A stretch of DNA of 64,000 bases from the human T2T-CHM13v2.0 reference genome, Homo sapiens. The number at the start of each line of letters is the position of its first letter. Positions within the stretch are counted from its first letter, which is position 1. The stretch lies in NCBI RefSeq assembly GCF_009914755.1, contig NC_060932.1; one strand, given 5' to 3'. The position numbers were made by a program, and so were the translations under genes. Below are positions 1,267 through 37,829 of this stretch, piece by piece. The notes below the pieces were generated by a model. The model ran no database searches and had not been told where the DNA came from. It worked only from the letters and a program-made list of their open reading frames with translations.

Positions 1267-1328
<62 letters not shown>

Positions 1329-1374
1329 ATATATGTATATATATACATATATATACACACACATATATATATGT
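1266..1374. repeat. (TA)n-(TG)n-(TA/CA)n compound microsatellite
   Basis: About 26 perfect TG units flanked by TA repeats. Confidence 0.95.
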
Positions 1375-2119
1375 ACTCATAAATTTCATGTATTAAAGCT
1401 AAATCTTTGGGCTGTAAACTCTTGTGGGTTTTAACAAATGCATAATGGCATGTATGTATAATGGCATGTATGCATCATTACGGTATAATACAGAATGGTT
1501 TTACCAGCCTAAACATCATCTACGCATCACCTATTTACCAAGTCCCCCTATCCTAAGCTCCAGGCAACCACCGATATTTCATTGCCTCTATAATTTTCCC
1601 TTTTCCAGAATGACATATTTTTAAGCAGAGTATGTAGCCTTTTCAAACTGGCTTCTTTTGCTTAGCAATATTCATTTAAGTAATATGCATGTGTCCATGT
1701 CTTTTATGATTTGATAACTTTTTATAGCTGAATAATATTTCCTAGTATAGATGTACCACAGTTTGTTTATACATTCACCTATTGAAGGACATTTTGCTTG
1801 CTTCCAGTTTGGGTCAATTAAAAATAAAAGACCAGTAAACATTTGCATGAAGGCTTTTGTGTAGACAAAAGTTTTCAACTCAATTGGGTAAATACCTAAG
1901 GGCATGCTTGCTAGAGTAAGTGGTTAAACTATGTTTACCTTCCAAAACAGTTGCCAGCCTTTCTCCAAAGTAATTGTACCGTTTTGCCTTCTTACCAACA
2001 AAGAATGAGAATATCTGATGCTCTGTACCCTCACCAGCATTTGGCATTTTTTTTATTTTACTCATTCTAATAGGTGTGTAGTGATGTCATTACTGTTTTA
2101 TGTTGTGAAGTTCCAATTT

Positions 2120-2370
2120 TTTCCTTTTTTTTGAGACAGTCTCACTTTGTCCCCCCAACTGGAGCACAGTGGTGCAATCATAGATCACTGTAGCATCGAA
2201 TTCCTGGACTCAAGCGCTCCTCCCACCCTTGGCTGATATTTTTATTTTTTGTAGAGGTGGGATCATGCTTTGTTGCCCAGGCTGATCTTGAACTCCTGGC
2301 ATCAAGGGATCCTCCTACCTCAACATCCCAAAATACTAGGATTACAGGCATAAGCTACTGTGCCCAGCCT
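2120..2370 (-). mobile_element. AluJ-like element with an internal deletion
   Basis: Diverged antisense Alu missing part of the right arm. Confidence 0.75.
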
Positions 2371-3539
2371 TAAGTTGTAATTTCTTAATGAAAAATGATT
2401 TTGTGTATATTTTTATGAGCTAAATTACCATCTGCATATCCTCCTGGTGAGGAGCCTGTTCAAATCTATTACCCATTTTTTAGTTGGGTTGTTTTCTTAT
2501 TGAGTTTTGAGAGCTCTTGCTATCATTGTGATACATGTCCTTTATCAGATAGGAGTTTTTTAAAATAATTTTTCCCAGTATATGGCTTCTCTTCATTCTC
2601 TTTACAGTATCTTTTACACAGAAGAAATTATTAGTTTTAATAAAGTTCAACTTACCTATAATTAAGTATTTCCAATTCTTCCCTCCCTTCCCTTTAACAC
2701 TGCTGTCATCCATTTTACTTATCCATGTGCTATAATAACCCAATGCATTGTTACAATTATTCTTTTGAGTAGTTTTCTATTAAATCAATTTAGAATAAGG
2801 CAAGAAAAAGATTTTATTTTACCTTCATTAATTCCTTCTTTGACCCTTTATTTTTCTTTATGTAGATCCAAGTTTCTGACCTCTTTAATTTTTCTTTTAT
2901 GAATTTTTTTAACATTTCTGGTAGGACAGACTTGCCGGCAATGACATTCCTCAGCTTTCATTTGTCTGAGAAAGTCTTTATTTCTCATTCACTTTTGAAG
3001 GACAATCTTACTGGATATAGAATTCTAAGTTGGGTTTTTTTCTTTTAATACTTTAGATATTGCATGGTACTCTCTTGTTTGCATAGTTTCCTCTATAGCT
3101 AAGGTCATAAGGTATTTTGCTGTTTGTTTTTTTCCCTCCGCCTTCTTTCAAAAATTTTCTTCTTGTTTTTGGTTTTCTACAGCTTGAATATGATAGACCT
3201 AGGTACAGATTTTTTGGTATGTATCCTGCCTGGTGTTCTCTGAGATTCCTAGATCTGTGGTTTGATGTCTGGATGTCTGTCATTAATTTTTAAAATTCCC
3301 AGCCATTGTTATTTCAAGTATTTTTTCTGTTCCTTTCTCTCTTCTTCTAGTCTTCCCACTATGCTTATATTTATTTTTTTCTAAATGTTCTAGTTCCAGG
3401 ATATTCTGTGCCATTTTTCATACTTTTATCATACTTTTTTGAATTTCATTAGGGAAGTGTCTGCTGTCATATGGAAGCTCATCAACTCCCCTGCCATGTA
3501 GGTATTCCTAATTTCTGTCACAGCGCTTTTGATTTCTAG

Positions 3540-3959
<420 letters not shown>

Positions 3960-5147
3960 TAATCATAGTTATTTTAAGTTTCTTGTATAAGATTTTTGAA
4001 ATCTTGTCACATATAAGCCTAGTTCTAATGTTTGCTTTGTCTCTTCAAACTCTTTTTTCTTGCTTTTGAACAAGCCTTGTAGTTATTTGTTGAAAGGCTG
4101 ATGTGAAGGGTCAGGTTCTCGAAACTCTTTTGAGGCACATGCTTTTTTCTGACTCCGTTTTTCTATCTCTGTTTTTCTCTTAATAACATTTCATATATAA
4201 TATGTCAAAGAATACAATGTACTATGTTATTTATATATTTAGAATATATTCAGGTGTATATGTGTGCACACGCATACAAAAAACATACCAACATAATATG
4301 ATTGTTGGGATTGTGCAAGTCTTTTTAGCCTCAGAATATAGCCTACTCTGTACCATTAAATTAAGGTCTTACAAAATCACTTGAGATTATTCCTATGTAG
4401 TTATGAATTCACATCCATACACAATTAGGGTCATTTATTTATGTATTATTCATTTATTTATTTCGCTTTAATTTTAATATAGTTGTTTACTGAATTTTGT
4501 TAATGTTTCCAAAACAAATTACAGTCCTCCCTGTAATTTGGGGAGAGGATTGTAATGGGGGGGTTATTTTGAGTACCATTGTGCATACTAAAATCCACAG
4601 ATACTCAAGTCTCTTCTAGCATATTTAGAGAAATTCAAGTTTCTATCTTTGTGCCTCTATACAATTTCCTCTCTTCCTCATAAGTAGCCATTATATTTTT
4701 CATATTTTGTTCAATTTTTACTCTAAATAAATGCACATATGCATTGGGATGCTTGGGATGCACGTCTTTTTTTTTCCCACCTGGCTATTTTTGATTTACA
4801 ATACTTGCTGGAGTTCACTGCATAGCACCACATAGAGATAGCCATCATGCCTTTTTACATCTCAGAGTCTCTCTTGTCTGAATATATCATCACAGTTCAC
4901 TATTGATGGACACCTGAATTATTTCCTATGTTTTGCTCCTACAGATAATACAGTAATAGATATCATTGGGAATAATTTTGTGTGTGTGTGTGCATTTAGG
5001 AATAGGAGCTATGAATCTGAGTGAAAATGCATATATACTCTTGCTTGATATTGACAAATTCCCCTCAATAGGGATGAACTATTTCACATTTCAATTGGCA
5101 ATATAGGAAAGTTCAATTTCTACAGAGATCACTAAGAGAGTATTTTA

Positions 5148-5708: not shown

Positions 5709-7139
5709 TCTGTTAGTGATCTAAGTTGGAAATTTTTTTATTCCCAGGTTGTCCTTTAAAAAAATTGATTTTGGCATTTTTGTAAAATGTAAAAATGCTT
5801 TTTATGTAGTCAAATGTGTCCATGTTTTTCAGTATTACTTTTGGGTGTTGAGTCATAGGAGAATTTTTCTATTTCCCAGTTTATAGAAGAATTCACTAAT
5901 GTTTCCTCTGGTTCTTTTATAATCTTACTTTTTACATTTAAGTTTCTGATTAATTTGGAATTTGTCATGACAGAACAGATGCAATTTATCTTATTTTATA
6001 TGGATTTCTAATACCATTTATTAAAATGTCTGTCTTGACTTCATATATTTGAAAAGCCACCACTGTCCTATTTTAAATATTCATATGGAATTGGGTCTAT
6101 TTCTGGAGTTTGTTTTCTGTTCTATTTTTGGTATGTCCAGTCAATTAAGCACACCATATTCTTTTAATGATAGAGAAAAAATATAAGATGCTTTAATATC
6201 TGCTAAGGACAATAGTTTATCACCTATGCTATTGTACCCCCTTCCCAAGGTTTTTCTTAACCATTTCTTGTTTATTTATTCTTTTAAATGAACTTTATAA
6301 TCAATTTTCATCTCCAGAAAAAAAATTATAGTGGTATGGTTATTGGAATTATTTAAAATTTTAAAATTAACCTAGAAGGGATTGACATCACTTTGAATCT
6401 GTTTTTCTCTTCAGCAATATAAGTTGTTTTCTATTTATTTATTTCAACTTTTGCACCTTACAGGAGTATTTTATAGTTTTTGTCACGTAGGTTTGGGACA
6501 TTTCTTTTTATGCTTATGGCAAGTTTGGAAATTTTTTTGTATTTTTGTTTAGCTGACTATGTTTTGTTTTTTGCTACATAAGAGGGATTTCTTTTTATTC
6601 CATTAAATATTCTAACTGGTTTTATTTACCTGTATGAAGACTATTTATTTTTATATATTGACCAATTATTTGTTGTATTTTTGCATTGATACTTTCTTAG
6701 TTTTTCTGATATATGATTGTAAAATCTGTAAAAAAAAATAGTATTAACTCTTCAAAACTGTTGTCACTAAATGCTTTTGTTCTCTATTTTATAGGCTACT
6801 ATTTACAACTTAGTGTGAAATAACAGTGAAGCTAATAGGCATCCTTGTACAGCTCATTTTACTAGAGAGTCTCTGCTACTTTACCATTAAGTAAGATACT
6901 TGTTCTTGAGTTACTGTATCTGTAAAGTATCATGTTAAATAGGAGTTCATCAATTTCTATTTATTTGGGTTTTTAAACATGTATTGGCATTTTAGGCCTT
7001 CCTACACCTAAGAAGAGGCTAGTATTATTTTCTTACTATACCCTTTTGAATTGATAGATTTCAATTTACAGTTTTCTAATATTGAATATCCCTTAGATTC
7101 CTATAATAAATATCACTTTGTCATGTTTTTTTCTCATTA

Positions 7140-24725: not shown

Positions 24726-25530
24726 GAGAATGGGCTTTTTAAATTTGAGATTTCTGTCACTGTTTTCCTTTTTGCTGTTTATTTTTATTACATCAATTCC
24801 CTTTAATTTACTGAATATCCAACTAACCACCTTTGTAGTAAAACACAGCCAGCCAGATAATATTTCCAGGAGTGGTTGCTGACTTTATTGCCTTCTGAAA
24901 TTTCAGACAATGCTTATTATTATCAGTACAAAGTTACATTGAAGGCTGATGTTAAGCAAACAGCCAATTCAAATTTTTGCCTTGAGTAACTGAGAAATGG
25001 TAAAGAGAATGAGGGATTGAGAAAGGGTAAAGACAAGTCAGATAAGAGAAAATAAAAGTGAATTCAACATTTATTAAAGAAAGTAACATGAAACATTATT
25101 AGCCTCAATCTTTTTATTAGTTTTTCTAAAAATCAACTCAAGATGGATTAAAGATCGTAAAACCCAAAACTATAAAAACCCTAGAAGAAAACCTAGGCAA
25201 TACCATTCAGGACATAAGCACTGGCAAAGATGTGATGATGAAGATACCAAAAGCCATTCTAACAAAAGCAAAAATTGACAAATGGGATCTAATCTGACAA
25301 AGGTCTAATACCCAGCTCTATGAGAAAGTTAAACAAGTTTACAAGAGAAAAACAAACAATCTCATTAAAAAGTGGGCAACAGACATGAACAGACACTTCT
25401 CAAAAGAAAAGACACTTCTCATACTTTCGGCCAAAAATCACATAAAAAAAGCCCAACATCACTGATTATTAGAGAAATGCAAATCAAAACCACAATGAGA
25501 TACCATCTCACACTAATCAGAGTGGCTATT

Positions 25531-26015
25531 TGTGGGGAGTGTATGACAACACATTCAAGCTTATGTGCAAGGCATTTGAGGTCGAGGCATGGAAAAATGC
25601 TGAGGCACTATGTGCATATTGTTTGTGCATGAGACTGTAACTCCTTGACTCTCAAAACAGGACAAGGAACAGGATGTGTGATAAGGAGTGCTGAACACAA
25701 CACCTAAGAATGTGGTTTGAGTGTTTTTAGATGTAATAAACAAGGCCATTTGCGTCTCATGACCCGAGCACAAATAGCCACCTCGTAGATATTTCTTGTT
25801 TGCCTGAATTGTAGTTCAACAAACCTTCTCAATAAATACGTGGCAGACGGATCTTTTTAGATCCATCTTTGTAGATGCTTTAGCTCAGGCTCAGGTGGAC
25901 GGCCGTCTTTTTCCTCATTGCTCGCAGCACTCCCTTGGAGGAGTTGCTCCTCACCCCATTCAGCTATAATTGTCTGAATACTTATTTCTCGGTGTTCACT
26001 GCAGACCAACCTGCA
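25531..26015 (+). repeat. 5' LTR (485 bp) of the Trp-primed provirus
   Basis: Begins TGTGGGG and ends CCTGCA. AATAAA at 25735 and 25831. Its last 73 nt recur at 31936-32008. Confidence 0.93.
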
Positions 26016-26017
26016 AG

Positions 26018-26035
26018 TGGTGACCCTGACATGAT
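26018..26035 (+). promoter_or_regulatory. Primer-binding site complementary to tRNA-Trp
   Basis: TGGTGACCCTGACATGAT against the tRNA-Trp(CCA) complement TGGTGACCCCGACGTGAT: 16/18 matches, both mismatches being CpG transitions. It starts 2 nt after the LTR's terminal CA. A candidate major splice donor CCG|GTAAGA lies at 26092. Confidence 0.9.
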
Positions 26036-26158
26036 TGCCTTTAAGTTAAACGCATGGAGTAGGATGACTCACCAGTCTTCGGGGAATACCGGTAAGAGAC
26101 AGTCCCGACCCGTTTTCAGGACAGGACCAACCCGTATAATACTAGGGGTTGGGTTACC

Positions 26159-27760
26159 ATGGGCTAGGAGTTGACCAAAAAGCAGAAAGTATTTTTTAAA
26201 ACAGTGCAACAATTACTTAAGGCTATCCAGTTCACGGTAGAGTCTGGAGCTTTGCATAAGCTTGTGCTTTTAATTTGGCAGGAATGCCCTTGGTTCCCTG
26301 ATCAAGGAACATTAGAGTTATGGGAGCAGGTGGGATGCTGCCTGAAAAGAGGATTTGAGCGGGGCAATTTTACCAAACCACCTGGAGTCTGGTACGCTCT
26401 GCGTTGTACCCTCTTTATATTCCAGATCGTAGTCAGTCAGATCGCCCATTTTCTTCACCTGAAGGGAATTCAGAAGATTTACAGGGAAAGGAAACACAGG
26501 AACCAGAACAACAGGGAGGGGCTCCTCCCCCCACTTTATTCCCTTCAGTGCAGCATAAAGAAGAGACTTTTTCTCGCAATGATGAGGACGGACCAGAGCC
26601 TTTTCCTCCCCCAATAGAAAAGCCATTGCCCTCTTTTCCTCCACCCTTAAGAAGACCTTCATTCATTGGCCCCGTTCAGGCAACAGCATCTCCCACCCAC
26701 CTTGAGGAGATTGGAGGCCACCCAAGAGACGGTTCTTGGATAAGACCTCCAGCCAGCGAACATCTATCTATATGACTGGGTGGCCGCATCCCCTCGACAA
26801 ACTTCCCTACTAGAGAGATGCCTCCAGGAGGGACTTAGGGAGACCCTGAGGCGCTTTTTGGTGCATTCCCTGCCATTGTTCAAAATAACAGGAGACAGCA
26901 TGAAAGCTTGCCTGTCACTGTCTTTAAGGAGTCAAAAAAAAGTATCTGCGAAAATGGTGTACATTCATCCTTTACTCGGGATGGTTGAGGCTCTGGGAAA
27001 TGGTTATGAGATGATTCTGCATGATTGGAAAACTCTGGTAAAAGTTTTGGTCTCAGCTGCTGAATATACTGTGTAGTGGAGTGAGTATAGTGATCTAGCC
27101 ATGCAGCAATCTTTGCAAAATTTGGATAATAATATCCCAATACAGCTTGATATGCTATTGGGAACAGGGCCTTTTGCTTTAGCTCAGGCTCAGGTGCACA
27201 GTCATCTATTTCCTCAATGTTCGCAGCTGGTGATACAGGCATGGAAGAGAATACCCATGGGACAATCCCAGGGTTCCTCTGTGATAGTTAGACAGAGTCC
27301 CACAAAAACATACATCAAATTTATCATCTGATTGCTGGCTGCAATCGAAAGACAGGTACCCCATCCTGAAGCCACCAAACTTCTTATGTTGCAATTGGCT
27401 TTTGAAAATGCAAATAAGGATTGTCAGGCAGCAACAACCCCAGTCCGAGCCACTGCCACTGCCACTGCCACTGAAATTGGTGTGTTTACTGAACTGTGCC
27501 AGGATGTAGGCACTACAACTCATCTGGCTCAGACTTTTCCTGCAATGATGACCAGGGCCACGTGTTATAATTGTGGTTGAACTAGGCATATGGCCAAAGA
27601 ATGCCGACAAAAGGGAGTCCCAGAGAAATCAAAGGCCCCTAAAATACCCAGTAAAGAATGCCAGTGATGCGGTAAATGTAAACACTGGGCTAACAAATCA
27701 AAATTTGATAAGGAAGGAAACTCATTATCGGGAAATGGGAAAAGGGGTGAGACCTTCAGC
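26159..27760 (+). pseudogene. gag: Degraded gag (MA-CA-NC)
   Basis: Starts ATG GGC TAG (MG*ELTKKQ). Beta-type MA motif ECPWFPDQGTL; CA motifs VRQSPTK and LAFENANKDC; two decayed CCHC knuckles (CYNCG*TRHMAKEC and CQ*CGKCKHWA). Many stops and frameshifts. Confidence 0.9.
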
Positions 27761-28538
27761 ACCCAGAAAAGTCAATGGAGGAACACCAATCTCCAAACTT
27801 GGGGGATGGCTTTCCCTCCCGAGTCAGGACCAGAAGTAGCATCCATGACCTCTCTTCCACCACCTCTGGCAGCACAGGGCTGGACCTCGCAGTCATAACG
27901 GACATGGTGCTTAAAGAGCAAGATGGGGTCCAGCTGATTTCAACTGGGATCTATGGCCCATTACCCAGAGGGACATTTGGATTGATTATTGGAAGGTCTT
28001 CTAGTACACTTAAAGGAATTCAAATTTTCCCTGGAGTTACAGATTCAGATTATTTAGGAGAACTAAAACTTATGGCACAGGTGTCAGGGGTCCACACCAT
28101 CTCTAAAGGAACTCACCTTGCTCAGATTATTCTTATTCCTGATCTTCAAGGTAATGCTCAACAGAGACCACAGGGCTTCAGGATTCGGCCACTCAGGCAT
28201 GAAAGTTTTTTGAAGTAGTTTAGTGTCATCTCATAGTCCATACTTGGAAGTAACAATTAATGGAGTTATTTTTATGGGAATTATTGACACAGGGCCAATC
28301 AAACTATTATAGCTAAAAAACAGTGGCCTTCAGATTGGTCTTCCTCTCCTGCCTTATCATGTGTGTTGGAGGGTATCAACAGCAGTTAAAAAGTAGGCAT
28401 GTCCTTCCACTTTTGGGTTGGGAAGGCAAGGTCGCCCATCTTCAGCCCTTTATCTTAGAAATTCCATTTTCTCTGTGGGGACAAGATGCCCTAGAAAAGG
28501 GGGGCTTAAACCTCTCTGTCCCACCGCCCTTTTGGTAG
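27730..28538 (+). pseudogene. pro: dUTPase-protease (pro), degraded
   Basis: A G GGA AAT slippery-like site at 27730-36 puts the dUTPase ORF (27775-28218: GSTGLDL, GLIIGRSS, GVTDSDYLGELK) in the -1 frame relative to gag. Protease IIDTG, with DTG at 28286-94, and SLWGQD. Confidence 0.92.
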
Positions 28539-31110
28539 GGGCCACGGCTCCTTTGAAAATTATCAAAATCAAGTGGAAAACTACCAGTCCAGTATGGGTG
28601 GAGTAGGGGTCCATTAAGAAGGAAAAACTGGAGCATATTCAATGTCTAGTACAAGAACAACTAGATGCTGGCCACATTGAGCCTACTACCAGTCCCTGGA
28701 ACACTCCTATTTTTACTATTCCAAAAAGGTCAGGAAAATGGAGGTTATTGTATGACCTCCATGCTATTAATGCTGTGATGTTTCCTATGGGACCTTTGTA
28801 ACCAGGATTGCCTTCTCCGGTTATGATCCCCAAAGACTGGCCTCTTATTGTAATTGATCTAAAGGATTGTCTTTTTTTTTTTTTCACCATACCCTTGCAT
28901 CCTGAGGATTGAGACAAATTTGCCTTTACCATTCCCACTTATAATAATCAGCAGCCAGTTGAACGCTATCAATGGACAGTTCTGCCCCAAGGGATGATGA
29001 ATAGCCCTACTATATGTCAGCTTTACGTACATGAAGCTTTACTTCCTGTGTGTCAATCCTTCCCCCAGGCAAAAATCTTCCACTATATGGATGATATTTT
29101 GATAGCTGCTCAGCAACAGTCATTACTGCATCAACTTTATGCAATGGTAATACAGCATATGTCACAGTATGGTCTTGTTATTGCACAAGAAAAGATTCAG
29201 CTGATGGCTCCGTGGCTCTATTTAGGAAGTCTTATTTTGTCTACTACTCTTAGGTCGCAACTTACAAAAATAATTCTCCCACAGCACTTAAGCCTTAATA
29301 CGTTACAGCAAGTCCTAGGACAGATTAATTGGATACACCCTTATTCAGGCATTCCCACAAATTCTTTGACTAATCTTTTTGACACCTTGAAAGGTGGCCC
29401 TGCTTTAAATTTGCTGTGAGACCTCTCTCCACTAGCATAGGCAGAGCTTAACGCTGTGGAGCAAGCTTTGGCCCAACAGTGAGTCTCACATTTAGATTCT
29501 GACAGACCTATAGATCTTTTTATCTTTAATACCCCTCATAGCCCTACAGGGATGGTTGGGCAAGTTGGAACAGATGTCTCTCCTTTGGAATGGCTTTACC
29601 TGTCTCATAACCCTTATAAACATATGCAAAAGACTACAGATTTAATAGCTTCTCTTCTCATAAAGGGACACTGACGTTGTGTCCAATTGTCAGGATATGA
29701 CCCTGCTACTCTTTTCCTACCTTTAAGCAAGGAACAATTTCATACCCTCTTAGCTTGTGATCTTGATTGCCAAGTCGCAATGGCTTACTTTATTGGTAAT
29801 ATCAGTTTCCATTTACCGGCCTCTAAGCTCCTGAACTTTTTATAAACTGTGCCTGTTAAATTGTATCTATTGTTGCCTCTGAGCCCTGCTTCATGCTACT
29901 ACTGTCTTCACAGATGCTTCAGGAAAAATGGGAAAGGCAGCTATAGTGTGGCAAGATGCCATGCAAACTGGCAGAAAAAAAAATCCACAAAGATTTCACA
30001 ACTACACAACAGGCAGAGTTAGGTGTCCTAATATTGGCCTTACAAACTTTCTCTCATCAAGACATAAATATAGTGATTCCAATTATGTGATGTATAGTAT
30101 TATTCATTTAGATCTCCCACATCTGAAAGGTATTACTAATGAACCCCTACTAACCCTATTTCTCAAAGTGTAGACGCTCCTCTCTGCCCATCATCACCCT
30201 CTTTACATCACACATATTCACTCTCATTCTGGACTACCTAGTCCCTTATCAGAAGAGAATGCTCGAGCTGATGCTCTGGTACGACCACATATGTCGTTTG
30301 CAGACTCTCCTGCATTTTTGCGAGCTCAAGCTGATCATTCCTTTTTTCATCAGAATGCACACAGTCTTAAACAGCAGTTTCTTTGACACTTGCTCAAGCT
30401 CGCATGATTATTAAAACTTGTCCTGATTGCCAACAGCATTCTCTCTCCTCTTTTTCATTGGGACTTGGGGCCAACCCACGAGGTCTGGTACCTAATGCTA
30501 TCTGGCAAACTGATATTACTCAGCATTCACCCTTTGGACGCTTCAAATTTCTCCACGTTACCATGGACACTTATATGAGCCTGACACATGCTACTCCCTG
30601 AACTGGAGAAAAAACTAAAGATGCAATTGCTCATCTTTTTAAACTATTATGACCTTGGGTCTTCCACAAACTATGAAAACTGATAATGGACCTTGCTATC
30701 GTAGCACTCGATTTGGATATGCATCGCAATTTTGGCACAAACAACACAAAACTGGTATTCCTTATAACTCAACCGGTCAGACCATTGTTGAACGAGCTCA
30801 TTGAGCTTTTAAAGTATATCTTATATAAACACAAAGGGGGAATATGGGGCTCTCTCCTCGAGAACAGATAGCAATGGTCTTATTTACTCTCAATATTTTG
30901 AATATTGCACAAGATGCCTGGACGGCTATTGATCGTAGGATGAAGCCAGTTGAAGTCACAAAAAGAAAGGTGTTAATTTGAGACATTTGTACAGGGAATT
31001 GGGAGAAAGCTTATGAGGCACTGCAGCGGAGTCAAGGTGCGGTTTGTGTTTCACAAACTACAGGATTAGAGTGAATCCCCATAAAATGAGTGAAGCCATA
31101 TTATTAGTTA
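28526..31110 (+). pseudogene. pol: pol (RT-RNaseH-IN), degraded
   Basis: [27 protein letters not shown] and YMDD (29084-95); RNase H FTDASG; integrase HSFFH...CPDC, WQTD, KTDNGP and IVERAH. Confidence 0.95.
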
Positions 31111-31170
31111 GAGACCACCAAACAACCCCCTCCTGATGATAAGGAGCTGTCATTGGAGAATTGACCAACA

Positions 31171-31935
31171 ATGATGATGATGAGTCGGAAGGCACCTGAC
31201 ATTACCTGGGGACAGCTAAAGAAATTGGATCAACAGGCAACTATCCAGCTCGCAGCCATGGGAGCCCCTGCAACTGCAGAGAACTGGTTTCTTATGTATC
31301 TGGCAGTAATTGGGGAAGCTTCTGAGAAAGTACACGGCTGGTAATTCTTGTTCTTTGCCAGGTGGGCTCAGCTCAAGAACATGTTTATTGGAGTCATGTT
31401 CTGAATCCCCCTGTTTTCAATGTTATTACATGGTGGGATGCTGACCCGCCTTTGTCATCTAATGATACTTCTTGGGAGGGAGGTCGATGGATGCCCCTGT
31501 CTTACCCCCTCACTGAAAATTTGGGATGGATCAAACTTAATGACTCCTTGACTTTATTGTCTAGCAATTCTCCTCTCTGTTTTTCCACATTGGCCCAAGA
31601 TAAGTGTATTACTCTCATTCTTCAGGAGTATCTTTATTATCAGCCTAAAAGGGATGCTAAGCTTGCAAACCTGACTTTTATTTCTGCTGTTACTACTAAT
31701 CTTACTGAGATTTCTAATGAAAGGATCTTCCTATATGCTGTCCAAGAAGGGACTGTCGATATGTTTGAGGCCATCCAGTGGTCCCCATGCAGATAACCTG
31801 CACCACATCAAGGACCTCTGCTCGATAATGCACCTTACTTGATTGGGGTCCCCATGGGTATGTCATGTCTGCAAACCAGACTATTGGATTTGGGAGTCCC
31901 TCCAATAGTTCCATTACCCTTCAATAGTTCCATTA
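31171..31935 (+). pseudogene. env: Beta-type env, signal peptide and N-terminal SU only
   Basis: ITWGQLKKL (compare HERV-K TWAQLKKL), VYWSHVLNPP...NDTSWEGG, PLCF and LLDWGPHG. It is cut by the deletion that joins it to the end of the 3' LTR. Confidence 0.85.
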
Positions 31936-32008
31936 GCTGCTCCCCACCCCATTCAGCTGTAATTGTCTGAATACTTATTTCTTGCTGTTCACTGCAGAGT
32001 AACCTGCA
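31936..32008 (+). repeat. 3' LTR remnant (last 73 bp)
   Basis: Aligns without gaps to 25943-26015 with 7 mismatches by my count, and is followed by the TSD GCTATT. Confidence 0.92.
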
Positions 32009-33841
32009 GCTATTATTAAAAAGTCAAAAAAACAATAAATGCTAGTGAGGTTGTGGAAGAAAAGGAAGACTTTTACACTGCTGATGGGAGTGTAAATAAG
32101 TTCAACCATTGTGGAAAGATAGAATGGCGATTCCTCAAAGACCTAAAGGCAGAAATACCATTCAACCCAGCAATCCCATTACTGGGTATACCCCCAAAGG
32201 AATATAAATCATTCTATTATAAAGACACATGCACACATATGCTCACTGCAGCACTATTCACAATAGCAAAGACGTGGAATCAACCCAAATGCCCATCAAT
32301 GATAGACTGGATAAAGAAAATGTGGAACATATACACCATGGAATACTATGTGGCCATTAAAAAGAATGAGGTCATATCCTTTGCAGGGACATGGATGGAA
32401 CTGGAAGCCAATATTCTTAGCAAACTAATGCAGAAACAGAAAACCAAGTACCACATGTTCGTATTTACAAGTGAGAGGTAACTAAATGATAAGAACACAT
32501 GGACATATAGAGGGGAACAATGCACACTGGGCACGAGACGAGGGAGAGGATCAGGAAAATAACAAATGGATACTAGGCTTAATACCTGGGTGATGAAAAA
32601 AAATCTATGCAACAAATCCCCTTGACACACATTTACCTATGTAACAAACCTGCACATCCTGGACACGTACCCTTGAACTTAAAATAAATGTTAAATTTTT
32701 TTTTCTAAATCCTATTAATTTCAATATGATGTTCATATCTAACCAATTTATAGAATCCTCGTTTTCTAAAATTTACAACATGTATTAAACTTTACCACAT
32801 TAGTCTGTATTCTGTGTTTTAGTCTATTTTATCCTATGTTTACTCTCTGAGTTAGAAAACATGTAATATTAAATGTCATTCAATTTTATATATTACATTC
32901 CTACAAATCAGGATACGATTGCCTAGATGACTCTCAGCTGTGTAAGAGTGAACTATTGGACTAAGATGTGGAAAGTTCTGTGACTCACTTGAATATTGTA
33001 AATGATCTACATGAAACTATATCTAAAACAACAAAGGAGACATACTTTTTTCATTTTTATCCATATTTTTAAAAATTCAAAGATGTGATTTAATTTAAAA
33101 TACAACTTTCTAATGATAATGAATGCTAATGATTTCTGAGTTGGCTTTAGTATATGCTTTTAATTTCACTGTGTAATGAGTTTGTTAAAAAACTTGTTAT
33201 TTAAAATCAAGATTTAATAGTTGTTGTGTATCAAATTATGAAGGCTTCTACTAGAGTCTTCAACTATGTCTTTAACATTTTAGTTTTGAAGTATCATGAT
33301 CAGAACTTGCATTTTCAGTGTACTATTCTTAAGATGCAGTTTTTACAAATCTACTCTACATACAGATGCTTATGGAAACAGTATTTAGGGAATACAAAAA
33401 AAGAGTCTGACTTCCACATTGAAATTACCATGAAGCATCGGGAAGAGACCAAGCATCAGAGGTAAAGTTGATATTTCAGCACGACTGTGTCTTTGGAGTC
33501 AGATATGACAAGTTGAATATAAAATCTGTAAACTGCAAAAATATTGTACTTCCCACAGCAGAGTGTTTAATTTAAATAACAACTCTCAAAGAACAGGTTG
33601 ACCTCATATGCCTAAGAGCCTGGGAAAAAATCCACGACTCTGGTACTACTTATCCTTCTTTTAATTCAGTTCAACAGGGTCCAAGGGAGGCTTATCCAGA
33701 TTTGATCGCCCATTTGCAAGACACAGCTCAAAAGGCTATTTCGGATTCTCATGCTAGGAATGTGATCATTCAGCTGCTTGCTTATGAAAATGCTAATACA
33801 GAATGTCAGGCAGCAATTAGACCTATTAAGGGAGAGGCAGA

Positions 33842-35620
33842 TCAAAATTACACTTATTGGGCATACATTCCATTCCCACCACTGATTAGGCCTGTTACAT
33901 GGTTAGACCCCCAGGTGGAGGTTAATGTTAATGACAGTGTCTGGATGCCTGGACCAACAGATAACCGAGGTCCTACTCATCCAGAGGAAGAAGGAATGTT
34001 AATGAATGTTTCCATTGGTTATTGCTTTCCTCCCATCTGCCTGGGGCTGGCAGCAAGATGTTTAAATTATGATAAACAAAGTTGGATGGTTTATGTCCCT
34101 GCAAATAATGGATCAAAAGCCTCTATTCATGCAATCAGTGGAAGAACATTTCAATCTTTGGACACTATTAAATACCTTGAGCATGGCTATGTTATGACAC
34201 ATTGCCAGATTAATAAATTTAAACCTAATAAGAAGCCCTGCCCTAGGAAGGCCACTAAATGGTCTGGAAAGCTAGAGGTGCTAACCTAGGAAGGTTGTAT
34301 TGCAAACAGTGCTGCTGTACTGCAAAATAATTCCTATGGAATCGTCATTGATTGGACCCCTAGGAGACACTTTGCAGTAAATTGTACTGGACAGCGCAAA
34401 GATTGTAGAGGGACTCCTTTTGCAAATGACTCCCCAGATAATGCACCAAAATTATATAGAAGAATTGAAACAAATTATTACCCTAGTAAGTGGGAGGAGA
34501 ATGGTATGGTTCCTCCAAGCCCCAAAATGATTGATCCAATTATAAGTCCAGAACATCCAGAATTGTGGAAATTAATGATGGCTCAAACCCCAATTCGGAT
34601 TTGGAAAGGAGAATATAAAACAGAGATCCATAGTAAAAAACTTCCATTTGTTGTAGTCATGACCCCTAATCAGACTGTCCCATTGCAGAGTTGTGTTAAA
34701 CATCCTTTTATGTTGGCAGTGGGAAAAATTAATATCCTAACTGACTCTCAAACCATATCATGCCTCAACTGTCATCTTTTTACCTGCATTAATTCCACCT
34801 TTAATAAAGATAATAGCATTTTATTGGTTAAGGCCCAAGAAGGAGTTTGGATACCTGTTTCCCTCAATAGACGTTGGGAGGCCTCTCCCTCCATACGTAT
34901 TATCACTGAGGTACTAAAAAGGAATACTTAATAGATCAAAGAGATTCATATTTACTTTAATAGCTATGATCATGGGCCTTATAGCTGTCACAGCTACTGC
35001 TGCTGCTGCTGGTATTGCTTTGCACTCTTCTATTCAAACTGTGGGCTTTGTGGATAGTTGGCAGAAAAATTCTTCTAAGCTTTGGAATTCCCAAAGCCAA
35101 ATAGATCAAAAATTGGCAAATCAGATTAATGATCTCCATCAAACAGTAATTTGGATGGGAGATCGGATTATGAGCTTGGAGCATAGAATTCAAATGCAAT
35201 GTGATGGGAATACTTCTGATTTTTATATTACTCCTAGCTCTTATAATGCCACTGAACACCACTGGGAGATGCTTAGACGTCACGTACAAGGAAAAGAAGA
35301 TAATTTAATATTAGATATTGATAAACTGAAAAAGCAAGTTTTTGAGGCATCTCAGGCTCATCTCACCCTGTTACCTGGAGCTGATATTCTTGCTGGAGCC
35401 GCTGATGGCCTTTCTAATACCAATCCTTTAAAGTGGATTAAAACCATACATGGATCAACAATTGCAAATTTTATTTTGGTTTGTGTCTGTTTATGCTGTT
35501 TGTTTTTAGTCTACAGATGCGGACGGTGCCTTGGGAGAGAAGCCAGACACCGTGAACGAGCCATGATAGCAATGGCTGTTATTAATCAAAGAAAATTAAT
35601 AAAGACAAAAAAGGGGGACA
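33842..35620 (+). pseudogene. env: HERV-K env (SU+TM) without its signal peptide
   Basis: SU is open except for TAG at 34287-89 and a 1-nt frameshift in the A run near 34916-20. TM is open (ORF 34966-35754) with fusion peptide, [13 protein letters not shown] heptad and a membrane span. Confidence 0.9.
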
Positions 35621-36207
35621 TGTCAGAAGGAGAGTTTCTGGGGTGCCAGTTGATTTGGTCTCCCCTGTGTGAGACACCCATGGGAAGCCATGGGTGGCCT
35701 CTGAGGAGAAAAGTCTCCTTATTGCCTTCATGTCTTTATGCCCCAAGAGCATAACCACTCAGCAGCATTCCACAGGTTGCTCAGGGAGATAACACTCCCT
35801 TGAAGCAGTGTGGTATAATCAAACATCTTGGCTCCTCCTGAAGCCTGCTCCCACCGATTTCAGTCCTGATAAGTTAAAGATCTTAAGTAGTTTAGACACA
35901 TGCCTTTGCTCAAGGAAATTGACAGAAACCACCACTGCTATACATCTTATCGAATGACTCACGAGTTCTCCTTCACTGATTAATCCTTTTCCTCATCCCT
36001 TCCTCCCCCTCCCATCTGCCCTAAGAACAAAGAGCTTGTAAACCATTAAATTGGGCAGAGCCTGAGAGCTCTGGGCCGTGAGCAAGGCTCTGACACTCTG
36101 GTCCCCTGGACCCACATTTTAAATGCTTATTCTGTCTCTTTCTAGCTCCTCTGTCTCTGCCGGACTTGGGGTACACACTGGGTGGTGTGGGGCTGGTTTC
36201 CCTAACA
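35621..36207 (+). repeat. 3' LTR, 587 bp, LTR14C-like
   Basis: TG...CA termini directly after the PPT; ATTAAA near 36045. No matching 5' LTR is present in the window. Confidence 0.85.
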
Positions 36208-37829
36208 ATTGTCTTTATTCTATAATTTCCCATATACAAGTAGTTAATTAATTAGTCAGAAAGCACCAAAACATTTAGTTCTTCATAATCTTGCTTGTGG
36301 AAATATCTCTTAAAAAAATGACCTTAACAATTCATTTCTAAAAAAGCAACACAAATAAGTTTTTCTTTGTCAAATACATCTCATCTATTACTGAAAATAC
36401 CATAAATATTTGGCTTTATTTTTCATTTTGTAAGGTTTCTTATTCTTATATATTAACAAACATATATTTTTGTTTCAAACAAACTTCTTTGCCAATTTTG
36501 CTATTTCTCCTAGTATAATTGCCATGCTTTTAATCATTCAAACTGGAAAATATGAAGTCATACTGCTTTTCTAATTTGTCTTCAATCCAATCCCAAGTCT
36601 CACCATAAATTGCTTTTTTATAAATAAGTTTTAGGGAAAATTTCCTGAAGAATCAGAACACTTCCTAATCTCTGATAAAGAGATCTTATAACTCATTAGT
36701 TCTTCTCAATTGAGACAATCTTAAATGTCAGAAAGCATGTAATCACAAGATAACAACTTGTATTTCTCACATAAGTGCTCAGTACAAACTTGTGTAATTA
36801 ATTTTCCATTTTTTAAACATATTTTTATTATTTTCTGAAAGTAACATTACTATGCCTGCTTTTTTAACCTTTGTTCAGCCTATGATCAGTCCTTTGCTCA
36901 AAATGCCTGTCATCATCCTACATAGCCTTCAAGAACAAAAAATACAAAATCCATCTCCTACAGGAAACTATCCTAATTCTAAGACATGTGGACATTTTTG
37001 CATGTAACTCTTCTGCCTCTTTTGACCTGAATTTTCATTCTGGCATTATATGTGTTGGTTGCATAAGCATGTATTTTTAAATCATTTTTATATCTTATTA
37101 CATCATTTAGATTATAAACTACTGTAGTACTTCCATCTTCAGTGCCTGGTTTTGCTCATTAATCCTTCCCTGGTAAAGCAACCCATAATAACCTCTTTAA
37201 TTAGAATATTTAGTACTTATTTTCTGTAGTCTTCATTTGGCCCTTAATTATATTCAATATGATATTTATTTATTATGTATTATTACCATATTCTTCATAC
37301 ATTCTTGCTCAATTATTTACATTTTAAGTTCCCTGGGAGGAAAAGCTTTTATTCTGACAATTCCTAAACTGAACTACGTAATAATTTGTATACAAAAAGG
37401 CACAAAAATACAGCTTGAAGAGCAAAGGGTCAGAAGGTAGAAGATTTGAGTTCCAGTCCTTGGTTTAGCCAACCAACAACTCATTGTTGAATAGTCTTTT
37501 AATAAACCTTTCTGAGTCTTTCCAGAGTAAAGTTGTTGTAGGAGAAGATTGTTAAATTTTTTTAAAGATTTTTTGTGTTTTGGAAACTAGGCAATGAGTT
37601 TGTCTCTATCTGCAGGGTCCAAATTATCATTATACTAAGAGATAAAGTAGCTACTTCTGAAAATAGGATGGGAATAAAGGAGACATCCAACTAGAAACAG
37701 ACAGTAGGGTATTTGAATAAGGACACAGGTCATATTAAGGTTGCACATTCTTTCAGAGCATATTCTTGTTTGTGTTTGTGCTTTCCAGGAATTGGTTGCC
37801 TACTTACCTTGGTACGCATTGCAAGCACA

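What the first reader, a model, noticed from the sequence alone, without database searches (positions are those of the whole stretch)
25531..32008. Betaretrovirus-like provirus primed by tRNA-Trp, possibly a class II lineage outside the standard HML-1 to HML-10 groups
Seen: the internal genes are clearly class II (dUTPase upstream of protease, YMDD, two CCHC knuckles, beta-type env, 6-bp TSD). The PBS is TGGTGACCCTGACATGAT, which is the tRNA-Trp complement with only two CpG-decay changes. Known: HML groups are mostly Lys-primed (HML-5 uses Ile/Met), while this Trp PBS is the one used by avian alpharetroviruses (ASLV). The 485-bp LTR does not resemble LTR3, LTR5, LTR13, LTR14, LTR22, MER9 or MER11 as I remember them; it tentatively recalls PrimLTR79, which is unverified. 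Inference: this is a rare, poorly described primate class II ERV family, and the locus preserves almost all of gag-pro-pol for reconstruction.
Basis: partly seen in the sequence, partly recalled or inferred. Interest (0 to 1): 0.8.

Follow-up and report, generated by a model that had tools for sequence, protein, structure and literature searches.

The report
Tryptophan-primed betaretrovirus fossil, small family
This is the dead remnant of an ancient mouse-mammary-tumour-virus-like retrovirus in human chromosome 8 that started copying its genome from tryptophan tRNA instead of the usual lysine tRNA, and it belongs to a small family that does not fit the standard groups I could test.

Summary
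Window 25531-32008 is one class II (betaretrovirus-like) provirus inside an L1. It has a perfect 6-bp target duplication, a 5' LTR, gag, dUTPase-protease, pol and the start of env. Its primer binding site matches the tRNA-Trp 3' end at 16 of 18 positions, and both mismatches lie at CpG sites. Every gene is broken. The 3' end (rest of env, PPT, most of the 3' LTR) is deleted.

Two corrections:
- The family LTR is about 417-420 bp. This copy's 485 bp includes a private 68-nt insert, partly copied from its own gag.
- PrimLTR79 is listed in print as a class I group.

The element belongs to a small family in T2T-CHM13: about 45 LTR copies at about 33 loci. Fifteen proviral loci all carry a Trp-type PBS, three of them perfect. 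Only three copies keep protease and RT (this one, chr12:70.42 Mb, chr19:24.10 Mb).

RT is 55-60% identical at the nucleotide level to anchors of HML-2, HML-5, HML-6 and one unlabelled abundant group. It forms its own fully supported clade in an unresolved trichotomy with HML-5 and HML-6. Env, TM and gag motifs look most like HML-5, but the LTR and PBS differ.

Still open: RT comparison with HML-1, -3, -4, -7 to -10, and the family's name in Dfam/Repbase.

The parts
25525..25530 (+). 5' copy of the 6-bp target-site duplication (GCTATT) in the host L1
   Evidence: Read. It is identical to 32009-32014. The L1 ORF2 frame continues across the insertion.
25531..26015 (+). 5' LTR, 485 bp, TG...CA, with AATAAA at 25832-25837
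   Evidence: It is 88-89% identical over its matching parts to the LTR pairs at chr12:70.42 Mb and chr19:24.10 Mb.
25856..25923 (+). Private 68-nt insert in the LTR, about 20 nt after AATAAA. The first 20 nt carry an inverted copy of the 6 nt just upstream. The last 48 nt, plus a 5-nt GCAGC overlap, copy gag 27175-27227.
   Evidence: family D2: 53 nt, 87%. (absent from 13 of 13 other LTR copies that span the site). (87-89% identical to gag of both siblings). (alignment).
26018..26035 (+). Primer binding site for tRNA-Trp, 2 nt after the LTR
   Evidence: Matches at 16 of 18 positions; both mismatches are at CpG. The tRNA identity is shown.
26159..27898 (+). gag (MA 26183-26392, CA 26975-27460, two zinc knuckles 27563-27604 and 27659-27700), broken by in-frame stops and two frameshifts
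   Evidence: Pfam Gag_p10, Gag_p24, Gag_p24_C and zf-CCHC_5. ORF map.
27751..28540 (+). pro: dUTPase (27841-28149) followed by protease (DTG at 28280-28297). The protease part is frameshifted.
   Evidence: Pfam dUTPase, E 4e-18. The best solved structure is the 2d4l dUTPase set, E 1.3e-31; the next is 8e-11. The chr19 sibling gives Pfam RVP.
28607..31060 (+). pol: RT (RVT_1 28718-29227, YMDD 29084-29095, thumb 29285-29449), RNase H (29895-30284), integrase (CPDC 30419-30433, core from 30491). Many stops and shifts.
   Evidence: Pfam. The best solved structure for the RT piece is 7sr6, E 1.9e-43, against 1.5e-20 for HIV-1 RT.
31171..31918 (+). 5' part of env (signal region and N-terminal SU only)
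   Evidence: ORFs are. It is colinear with env of the chr19 sibling up to query position 6388. It also matches the HML-5 anchor by tblastx.
31919..31934 (+). Junction of a deletion of about 1.8 kb (rest of env, PPT, about 345 nt of the 3' LTR), beside a short local tandem duplication
   Evidence: The chr19 sibling keeps about 1.44 kb more env before its 3' LTR. The junction sequence was read.
31935..32008 (+). Last 74 nt of the 3' LTR
   Evidence: 91% identical to 25942-26015. (7 differences in 74).
32009..32014 (+). 3' copy of the target-site duplication (GCTATT)
   Evidence: Read.

Best explanation
Window 25531-32008 is a dead provirus of an extinct betaretrovirus-like (class II) lineage. 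This lineage primed minus-strand DNA synthesis with tRNA-Trp.

History of this copy:
- It integrated into an L1 and made the 6-bp duplication.
- It later lost about 1.8 kb at its 3' end.
- All of its genes decayed.

The family in this genome is small: about 45 LTR copies at about 33 loci.
- All 15 readable proviral loci carry a Trp-type PBS.
- Most members are internally deleted genomes that share break points. They were therefore presumably copied with proteins supplied by full-length relatives (inferred).
- Only three copies still hold protease and RT.

By RT the family is a group-level lineage of its own, on the old HML-5/HML-6 side of the class II tree. Gag, SU and TM motifs are nearest to HML-5. 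The LTR and PBS are unlike those of HML-5 (Met), HML-6 (Lys) or HML-9.

It most likely has no HML number of its own. Repeat libraries probably file it under the nearest internal sequence, with an orphan LTR name (inferred, not shown).
For: Anatomy and PBS.

The Trp PBS is a family trait.
- The perfect 18-mer occurs 3 times in the whole genome, each time directly after a family LTR.
- All 15 proviral loci have a Trp-like PBS after 'CTGCA AG'. Mismatch counts are 0 in 3 loci, 1-2 in 6, 3 in 3 and 4 in 3.

Family size.
- Two LTR queries from the two LTR subtypes returned nearly the same places. One search gave 49 first-look candidates, 40 scored, 53 matches. One search gave 47 candidates, 40 scored, 41 matches.
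- Counting the union of the two tables by hand gives about 45 LTR copies at about 33 loci.

RT rarity. Of the 40 places scored, only 2 besides the window match the RT half, at 85-88%. The next best are 66-69%.

Shared deletions are shown.

Anchors.
[quoted passage not shown] Its family has at least 40 copies at 80-87% identity, including the X-chromosome locus that Vargiu labels HML5.
- HML-6 is L077, locus 691 of PMC7232394. Its family includes four further places near the published positions of loci labelled HML6, ERVK3-1 or LTR3.

RT nucleotide identity over about 790 nt:
- window to siblings, 87-89%
- window to HML-5, 57%
- window to HML-2, 59-60%
- window to the unlabelled group, 55-59%
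- for scale, HML-2 to the unlabelled group, 73-75%

RT amino-acid identity over the 168-aa piece: 45% to HML-6, 47% to HML-2 and 41% to HML-5.

ML tree. The family is a 100/100 clade on a stem of 0.39. It sits in an unresolved trichotomy with HML-5 and HML-6, split 100/99 from HML-2 plus the unlabelled group.

LTRs. There is no similarity above shuffled controls to HML-5, HML-6 or HML-9 LTRs (best 21.1 bits, against up to 22.6 in 20 shuffles).

The chr19 sibling has the full betaretroviral domain set and no G-patch hit. Its TM motif resembles the HML-5 ISD-like motif printed by Vargiu, not the LANQIN type of HML-1 to -4 and -7 to -10.

Vargiu's supplement lists no W PBS for any HML group.

No protein above 52% identity turned up among 14 hits in the 5.8-billion-protein search.
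Against: - RT anchors for HML-1, -3, -4, -7, -8, -9 and -10 were not obtained.
- HML-5 and HML-6 are each represented by one decayed RT copy. The tree gives weak support (60/23) for a sister relation to HML-5. A broader HML-5 sample could therefore pull the family inside a wide HML-5.
- MA, SU and TM motifs are HML-5-like, and like HML-5 the family shows no G-patch.
- Lavie 2004 (HML-5), Pisano 2019 (HML-6) and Flockerzi 2005 (HML-1/-9) are not held. Vargiu's Table S1, which lists every provirus with its PBS, cannot be read here. A printed description may exist there.
- Kojima 2018 lists LTR22 and LTR22E as ERV2 LTRs without a characterised internal part. The LTR may therefore already be catalogued.
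- No Dfam or RepeatMasker run was possible.
Confidence: 0.62

Rival explanations
1. It is an ordinary, if divergent, member of HML-5 (HERVK22). Its LTR is one of the catalogued LTR22-type subfamilies. The Trp PBS is then only a subgroup trait of a known family.
For: - The chr19 sibling's TM motif and the window's SU N-terminus and MA resemble the HML-5 consensus motifs printed in Vargiu's supplement.
- No G-patch was detected, as Vargiu reports for HML-5.
- The tree gives weak support (60/23) for a sister position to the HML-5 anchor.
- Kojima 2018 lists LTR22 and LTR22E as ERV2 LTRs without a characterised internal part.
- tblastx shows colinearity along the whole genome with the HML-5 anchor.
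Against: - RT is 57% identical to the HML-5 anchor, whereas HML-5 copies are 80-87% identical to one another in gag.
- blastn finds only about 400 nt of RT in common.
- The LTR shows no similarity to an HML-5 LTR above shuffled controls.
- The PBS of the HML-5 copy in L078 is of another type, and reviews state Met for HML-5.
- Vargiu lists I, K and p for HML-5, not W.
- The distance from the family to HML-5 is about the same as from HML-5 to HML-6.
Confidence: 0.25
2. It belongs to one of the HML groups for which I had no RT anchor (HML-1, -3, -4, -7, -8, -9 or -10).
For: Those groups were not placed on the RT tree. HML-7 and HML-10 have '?' as PBS in Vargiu's supplement.
Against: - The family falls on the HML-5/HML-6 side of a 100/99 split from HML-2 and an abundant unlabelled group.
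- The chr19 sibling's TM lacks the LANQIN-type motif that Vargiu gives for HML-1 to -4 and -7 to -10. The HML-9 fragment in this same window carries that motif.
- The LTR starts printed for the HML-1 and HML-3 consensuses differ from this LTR, judged by eye.
- The HML-7 paper does not hold the terms 8q21, 12q15 or 19p12.
- The HML-9 list names only the neighbouring fragment.
Confidence: 0.08
3. The Trp PBS marks a link to alpharetroviruses (ASLV) or to Trp-primed class I elements (HERV-W). On this reading the element is a recombinant with a foreign LTR-PBS module.
For: That ASLV and HERV-W use a Trp PBS is recalled knowledge. Grandi 2017 states W for HERV-W.
Against: - LTR, PBS, leader and gag are contiguous and co-diverged in 15 loci.
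- dUTPase lies in pro, the MA is Gag_p10, and the target duplication is 6 bp.
- The best solved structures are 7sr6 for RT and the 2d4l set for dUTPase. I recall these as HERV-K RT and Mason-Pfizer monkey virus dUTPase.
- I did not compare the LTR with LTR17 or with ASLV.
Confidence: 0.03

Closest known systems
HERV-K(HML-5) = HERVK22 with LTR22A/B/C
   Same: - Old class II lineage with the same gene order, including dUTPase in pro.
- No G-patch detected.
- Similar MA and SU N-terminal motifs.
- An aberrant TM motif of the same type.
- Same side of the RT tree.
   Different: - RT is only 57% identical at the nucleotide level.
- The LTR is unrelated at detectable level.
- The PBS is Trp instead of Met.
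- The family has about 33 loci, against about 139 proviruses and 600 solo LTRs stated for HML-5.
HERV-K(HML-6) = HERVK3 with LTR3A/B
   Same: - Old class II lineage, with LTRs of about 420-445 bp.
- Many members lack RT through internal deletion.
- Same side of the RT tree.
   Different: - Its PBS is Lys-like, identified from recall of the tRNA.
- The LTR is unrelated.
- RT piece is 45% identical at the amino-acid level.
- Vargiu prints a different TM motif, a G-patch and a GPY/F-like motif for HML-6.
HERV-K(HML-2) and the other Lys-primed HML groups
   Same: Betaretrovirus-like gene order. RT is nearest to the solved 7sr6 polymerase among PDB entries.
   Different: - RT is 59-60% identical at the nucleotide level and the 168-aa RT piece is 47% identical at the amino-acid level.
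- The family lies on the other side of a 100/99 split.
- The Env/TM motif type differs, and the PBS is Lys.
Avian sarcoma/leukosis viruses and HERV-W (other Trp-primed retroviruses)
   Same: Use of tRNA-Trp as primer (recalled; W for HERV-W is stated).
   Different: They belong to another genus or class. Here the element has dUTPase in pro, a Gag_p10 matrix and a 6-bp duplication. No sequence comparison with them was made.
'HML-11' of Subramanian et al. 2011
   Same: A small class II group split off from a numbered HML group by sequence distance.
   Different: HML-11 comprises two proviruses (17p13.1, 8p22) described as close cousins of HML-2. The present family is far from HML-2.

Membership tests
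Class II (betaretrovirus-like) endogenous retrovirus | dUTPase encoded in pro, upstream of the protease | tested here: met
   Pfam dUTPase covers 27841-28149 and the DTG lies at 28280-28297. The chr19 sibling has dUTPase followed by RVP.
Class II (betaretrovirus-like) endogenous retrovirus | Betaretroviral matrix (Gag_p10) and two zinc knuckles in NC | tested here: met
   Gag_p10 was found. Two knuckles are recognisable at 27563-27604 and 27659-27700, each interrupted. Both are hit by Pfam in the chr19 sibling.
Class II (betaretrovirus-like) endogenous retrovirus | 6-bp target-site duplication | tested here: met
   GCTATT lies on both sides. The chr19 sibling has GCATAG and GCACAG.
Class II (betaretrovirus-like) endogenous retrovirus | gag-pro-pol in three frames joined by two -1 shifts | tested here: inconclusive
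   gag to pro is a -1 change of frame. The pro to pol frame is blurred by indels in the protease.
HML-5 (HERVK22) | RT within the HML-5 clade | tested here: not met
   RT is 57% identical at the nucleotide level to the single HML-5 anchor. On the tree the family is a separate 100/100 clade. Only one HML-5 RT was sampled.
HML-5 (HERVK22) | LTR22A/B/C-type LTR | tested here: not met
   No similarity above shuffled controls to the LTR of an HML-5 copy, L078. Which LTR22 subfamily L078 represents is not known.
HML-5 (HERVK22) | PBS for tRNA-Met | tested here: not met
   All 15 family loci have a Trp-type PBS. The HML-5 copy L078 carries a different PBS. Met is stated in the reviews.
HML-5 (HERVK22) | Aberrant TM motif of the LLLQQGIDQKIL type, and no G-patch | tested here: inconclusive
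   The chr19 sibling has a related but clearly diverged motif. No G-patch hit was found. Absence of a hit in decayed genes is weak evidence.
HML-6 (HERVK3) | LTR3-type LTR, Lys PBS, RT within the HML-6 clade | tested here: not met
   There is no blastn match to L077 and no LTR similarity. RT is 45% identical at the amino-acid level to L079.
HML-2 | RT within the HML-2 clade | tested here: not met
   RT is 59-60% identical at the nucleotide level to 9 HML-2 loci, and the family lies on the opposite side of a 100/99 split.
HML-9 (HERVK14C/LTR14C) | LTR14C, and a TM motif of the [14 protein letters not shown] type | tested here: not met
   The neighbouring HML-9 fragment in the window has that motif. 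Its LTR is unrelated to this one. The HML-9 RT was not compared.
HML-1, -3, -4, -7, -8, -10 | RT within the respective clade; LTR14A/B, MER9, LTR13, MER11D, MER11A-C, LTR14 | not tested
   No labelled RT or LTR anchors were fetched. Only indirect evidence is available: the TM motif type, LTR starts of HML-1 and HML-3 judged by eye, and tree side.
PrimLTR79 | LTR matches the PrimLTR79 consensus | not testable with these tools
   No Dfam or Repbase sequence is on hand. In print it is a class I, HERVFRD-like group.

The most novel reading that the evidence does not exclude
The human genome holds an unnumbered, Trp-primed betaretrovirus-like lineage, a third old branch beside HML-5 and HML-6. It has only three RT-bearing proviruses and about a dozen internally deleted derivatives that were copied in trans. 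On this reading it has never been described as a group of its own, and repeat libraries split it between an orphan LTR entry and the HML-5 internal consensus.
Probability: 0.4. Interest if true: 0.6.

Novelty: new variant of a known kind. Interest (0 to 1): 0.48.

Why it matters
- The HML-1 to HML-10 scheme rests on RT fragments amplified from human DNA. A lineage with three decayed RT copies could have escaped it. If so, this family adds a branch to the history of betaretroviruses in catarrhine primates.
- It shows a clean switch of primer tRNA (Trp, against Met in HML-5 and Lys elsewhere) between related lineages.
- It gives a small, countable example of deleted genomes spreading on the proteins of a few full-length relatives.
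- Locus-specific HERV expression studies that label such loci as HML-5 would be mislabelling them.
- I found no sign of a present function. The provirus lies in an intron of a predicted lncRNA, antisense to it, and overlaps none of the RefSeq functional elements given for the window.

Tried and rejected
**Naming the locus from print**
- Vargiu 2016 Table S1 is an .xls and cannot be read.
- Searching its readable supplements for hg19 positions found nothing.
- Full-text searches for cytoband names and Telescope-style locus names found nothing useful.
- A Telescope paper's supplements hold no such names.
- The supplement of PMC7232394 is cut and held none of my position prefixes.
- Lavie 2004, Pisano 2019 and Flockerzi 2005 are not held.

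**Searches for a printed Trp-primed class II HERV**
- Searches gave no such paper among those listed.
- The HML-8 preprint calls its PBS 'tryptophan'. It also shows a logo of the PBS as an amino-acid sequence, and I guess, without having checked, that the label comes from reading the conserved TGG start as a codon. I set it aside.
- A search for LTR22E returned only lists of names.

**Other dead ends**
- HML-11 is an HML-2 cousin.
- Labelling the abundant unlabelled RT group as HML-3 failed. None of the 40 scored places matched a printed HML-3 locus.
- HML-9 list rows with pol only turned out to lie at HML-2 loci, so they were not used as anchors.
- Checking the Met label of the HML-5 PBS against a tRNA failed. 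The only tRNA-Met in my loci is the initiator, which matches at 9 of 18. The elongator was not fetched.


Full report
**What is in the window**

The sequence shows a retroviral insertion at 25531-32008 on the + strand. It sits inside the 3' part of an L1 ORF2. The L1 reading frame runs up to 25530 and resumes at 32009. The six bases GCTATT are present on both sides.

- The 5' LTR is 25531-26015 (TG...CA, with AATAAA at 25832-25837).
- Only the last 74 nt of the 3' LTR remain (31935-32008). They show 7 differences in 74 from the 5' LTR.
- Two bases after the 5' LTR comes an 18-nt primer binding site at 26018-26035.

**Genes**

With stops read as X, Pfam finds Gag_p10, Gag_p24, Gag_p24_C, zf-CCHC_5, dUTPase, RVT_1, RVT_thumb, RNase_H and rve, spread over the three frames. 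One search places the motifs:
- two interrupted zinc knuckles
- dUTPase, followed by the protease DTG
- YMDD
- the integrase zinc motif
- an env start at 31171

The best solved structures are 7sr6 for the RT piece (E 1.9e-43; HIV-1 RT 1.5e-20) and the 2d4l set for the dUTPase (E 1.3e-31; next 8e-11). I recall these as the HERV-K RT and the Mason-Pfizer monkey virus dUTPase.

No gene is intact. The longest open stretch is 168 aa, in RT. CpG is depleted, at observed/expected 0.27. Env stops after the N-terminal part of SU. Comparison with the chr19 relative shows that about 1.44 kb of env plus PPT and about 345 nt of LTR are missing. A small local duplication sits at the junction.

**The primer binding site**

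ARAGORN of the 7 non-proviral places tRNA-Trp(CCA) genes that end with the motif.
- The complement of that end plus CCA matches window 26018-26035 at 16 of 18 positions. Both mismatches are at CpG positions.
- The perfect 18-mer occurs exactly three times in the genome, each time right after an LTR related to this one.
- All 15 proviral loci of the family that I hold have a Trp-like PBS at the same place, with 0 to 4 mismatches.
- The chr19 copy carries it as three tandem 22-bp units.

The Trp PBS is therefore real and is a trait of the family, not an accident of this copy.

**The LTR**

Other copies match LTR positions 1-325 and 394-485 with 3-4 nt between the two parts. None of the 13 copies that match on both sides has the 68 nt at 25856-25923. 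The family LTR is thus about 417-420 bp.

The insert lies about 20 nt after AATAAA.
- Its first 20 nt contain an inverted copy of the six bases just upstream.
- Its last 48 nt, plus a 5-nt overlap (GCAGC), copy gag 27175-27227 (87% over 53 nt).
- It is as close to the gag of the two siblings (87-89%) as to the window's own gag. It also keeps CpGs that the window's gag has lost. It is therefore about as old as the provirus.

A template switch during reverse transcription is my guess. Nothing here tests it.

**The family**

Two LTR queries of different subtype return nearly the same set of places.
- 49 first-look candidates, 40 scored, 53 matches.
- 47 candidates, 40 scored, 41 matches.

Counting the union by hand gives about 45 LTR copies at about 33 loci. 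Twelve are LTR pairs, three more are 5' LTRs with internal sequence, and the rest are single LTRs. The tool warns that its counts are lower bounds.

LTR identity to the window runs from 72% to 89%. The closest are the pairs at chr12:70.42 Mb and chr19:24.10 Mb.

A 2-kb pol query matches in full only those two loci (85-88%). About ten further loci match only from the RNase H region onward (84-86%). The RT part then drops to 66-69%, and those matches are HML-2 proviruses and another abundant group.

One search shows why. Most members lack the middle of the genome, and independent loci share break points.
- Query 1303 to 4067: the chrX pair and chr1:86.34 Mb.
- Query 2068 to 4167: chr8:29.59 Mb and chr11:60.71 Mb.

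Deleted genomes were therefore copied, presumably with proteins from full-length relatives. That last step is inferred.

The chr19 copy (8.6 kb) gives the whole domain set, including RVP, the integrase zinc and DNA-binding domains and a GP41-type TM. It gives no G-patch hit.

**Age**

- 5' against 3' LTR divergence is 26 of 419 (chr19), 35 of 417 (chr12) and 7 of 74 (window).
- The three copies differ from one another by 10-12% in the LTR.
- At 2.3e-9 per site per year the LTR pairs give about 14-22 My.
- Gene conversion and rate uncertainty make this rough. No other primate genome was on hand.

**Which group**

I anchored known groups in the same assembly from printed coordinates.

*HML-5*
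[quoted passage not shown] I placed it by the MHC class II alpha genes and fetched it as L076.
- Its gag start has at least 40 relatives at 80-87% identity. One lies on chrX near the printed position of the locus that Vargiu labels HML5.
- One relative (L078) shows an LTR of about 480 bp and a different PBS. Two papers state that HML-5 uses tRNA-Met.

*HML-6*
- Anchor: locus 691 of PMC7232394. I placed it by the LCT gene and fetched it as L077.
- It has a 445-bp LTR pair and a PBS that I recognise from memory as Lys-type.
- Its relatives include places close to the printed positions of the two chrX loci of the same paper, the chr16 locus of Vargiu, a chr19q-terminal place that fits ERVK3-1, and the DRB LTR3 element. 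All offsets are my estimates.
- An RT piece of one HML-6 copy is L079.

*HML-2*
- Represented by nine loci. They lie where well-known HML-2 proviruses are, for example 7p22.1 and 3q27.2.

*RT comparison*
- Over about 790 nt of RT the window is 87-89% identical to its two siblings.
- It is 57% identical to HML-5, 59-60% to HML-2 and 55-59% to the unlabelled abundant group.
- HML-2 and that group are 73-75% alike. HML-5 and HML-2 are 61% alike.
- The ML tree (20 rows, 791 columns) makes the three copies a 100/100 clade on a stem of 0.39.
- That clade sits in an unresolved trichotomy with HML-5 and HML-6 (60/23 for HML-5 as sister). It is split 100/99 from HML-2 plus the unlabelled group.
- tblastx shows the element colinear with both anchors, at about the same amino-acid identities as the two anchors show to each other.

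*LTRs*
- Family LTRs show nothing above shuffled controls against the LTRs of HML-5, HML-6 and the HML-9 fragment next door.

*Motifs*
- The SU N-terminus, the MA, and the TM motif of the chr19 copy look most like the HML-5 consensus motifs printed in Vargiu's supplement, judged by eye.
- They are unlike the LANQIN-type TM motif given there for HML-1 to -4 and -7 to -10.
- The same supplement lists the PBS types of the ten groups: K, K, K, K, 'I, K, p', K, ?, 'K, r?', 'K, e' and ?. W is not among them.

*Protein database*
- The 5.8-billion-protein search with the RT piece gave 14 hits. The best are 44-52% identical: bird and rabbit ERV-K-like Pol proteins and a bovine retrovirus polyprotein.

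**Limits**

- I had no RT anchors for HML-1, -3, -4, -7, -8, -9 and -10, and only one copy each for HML-5 and HML-6.
- No Dfam or RepeatMasker run was possible.
- The papers most likely to have described such a subgroup are not held, and Vargiu's table of all proviruses cannot be read.
- Kojima 2018 (Table 4, passages) lists LTR22 and LTR22E as ERV2 LTRs without a characterised internal portion. The LTR may be one of these. Against that, it shows no detectable likeness to an HML-5 LTR.

**Verdict**

This is a small, Trp-primed class II lineage. At the level of RT, LTR and PBS it stands apart from the groups I could test, and it is nearest to HML-5 and HML-6. Whether it lies outside all ten HML groups, and whether it is already named, remains open.

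It is a fossil. Nothing suggests present function.

Noticed in passing
window 33590-36208 (+): A second, separate class II fragment. A gag CA C-terminal piece is joined in frame to env SU at about 33843, followed by TM, a PPT (35607-35619) and an LTR (about 35621-36208). Open stretches run 33576-34289, 34290-34931 and 34918-35754. Its TM motif equals the hml9_a label of Vargiu 2016. Jia 2022 list an HML-9 '8q21.13' env plus 3' LTR element at this place.
   Followed up: partly
L075 (chr19:24094700-24104400, minus strand), just after the 5' LTR: The longest relative carries the Trp PBS as three tandem 22-bp units (1-3 mismatches each).
   Followed up: no
window 25856-25923: This is the 68-nt insert in the 5' LTR, near the expected R/U5 border. 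It starts with a short inverted copy of the adjacent LTR bases and continues with 48 nt of gag, joined through a 5-nt overlap. It keeps CpGs that the gag copy has lost. The mechanism is unexplained.
   Followed up: partly
loci L034-L043 (chrX:70.13 and 70.21 Mb, chr1:86.34 Mb, chr8:29.59 Mb, chr11:60.71 Mb): Independent family members share the same internal deletion break points. This points to spread of deleted genomes in trans. The two chrX copies are an inverted duplicate pair with identical scores.
   Followed up: partly
chr3:188374783-188391556 of the assembly (L030, L035, L058): A family member is split by an HML-2 provirus lying where K50b (3q27.2) is listed by Subramanian 2011.
   Followed up: no
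HML-6 places: In most HML-6 copies that match both halves of the query, protease and integrase lie only about 110-380 nt apart. These copies therefore lack RT. One copy at chr19:54.89 Mb keeps about 2 kb between them.
   Followed up: no
Jia 2022 Table 1: Several pol-only rows of the published HML-9 list (1q22, 5q33.3, 10q24.2) lie at HML-2 proviruses. The 12q13.11 row lies at a member of another abundant group. That list therefore seems to include non-HML-9 loci.
   Followed up: no
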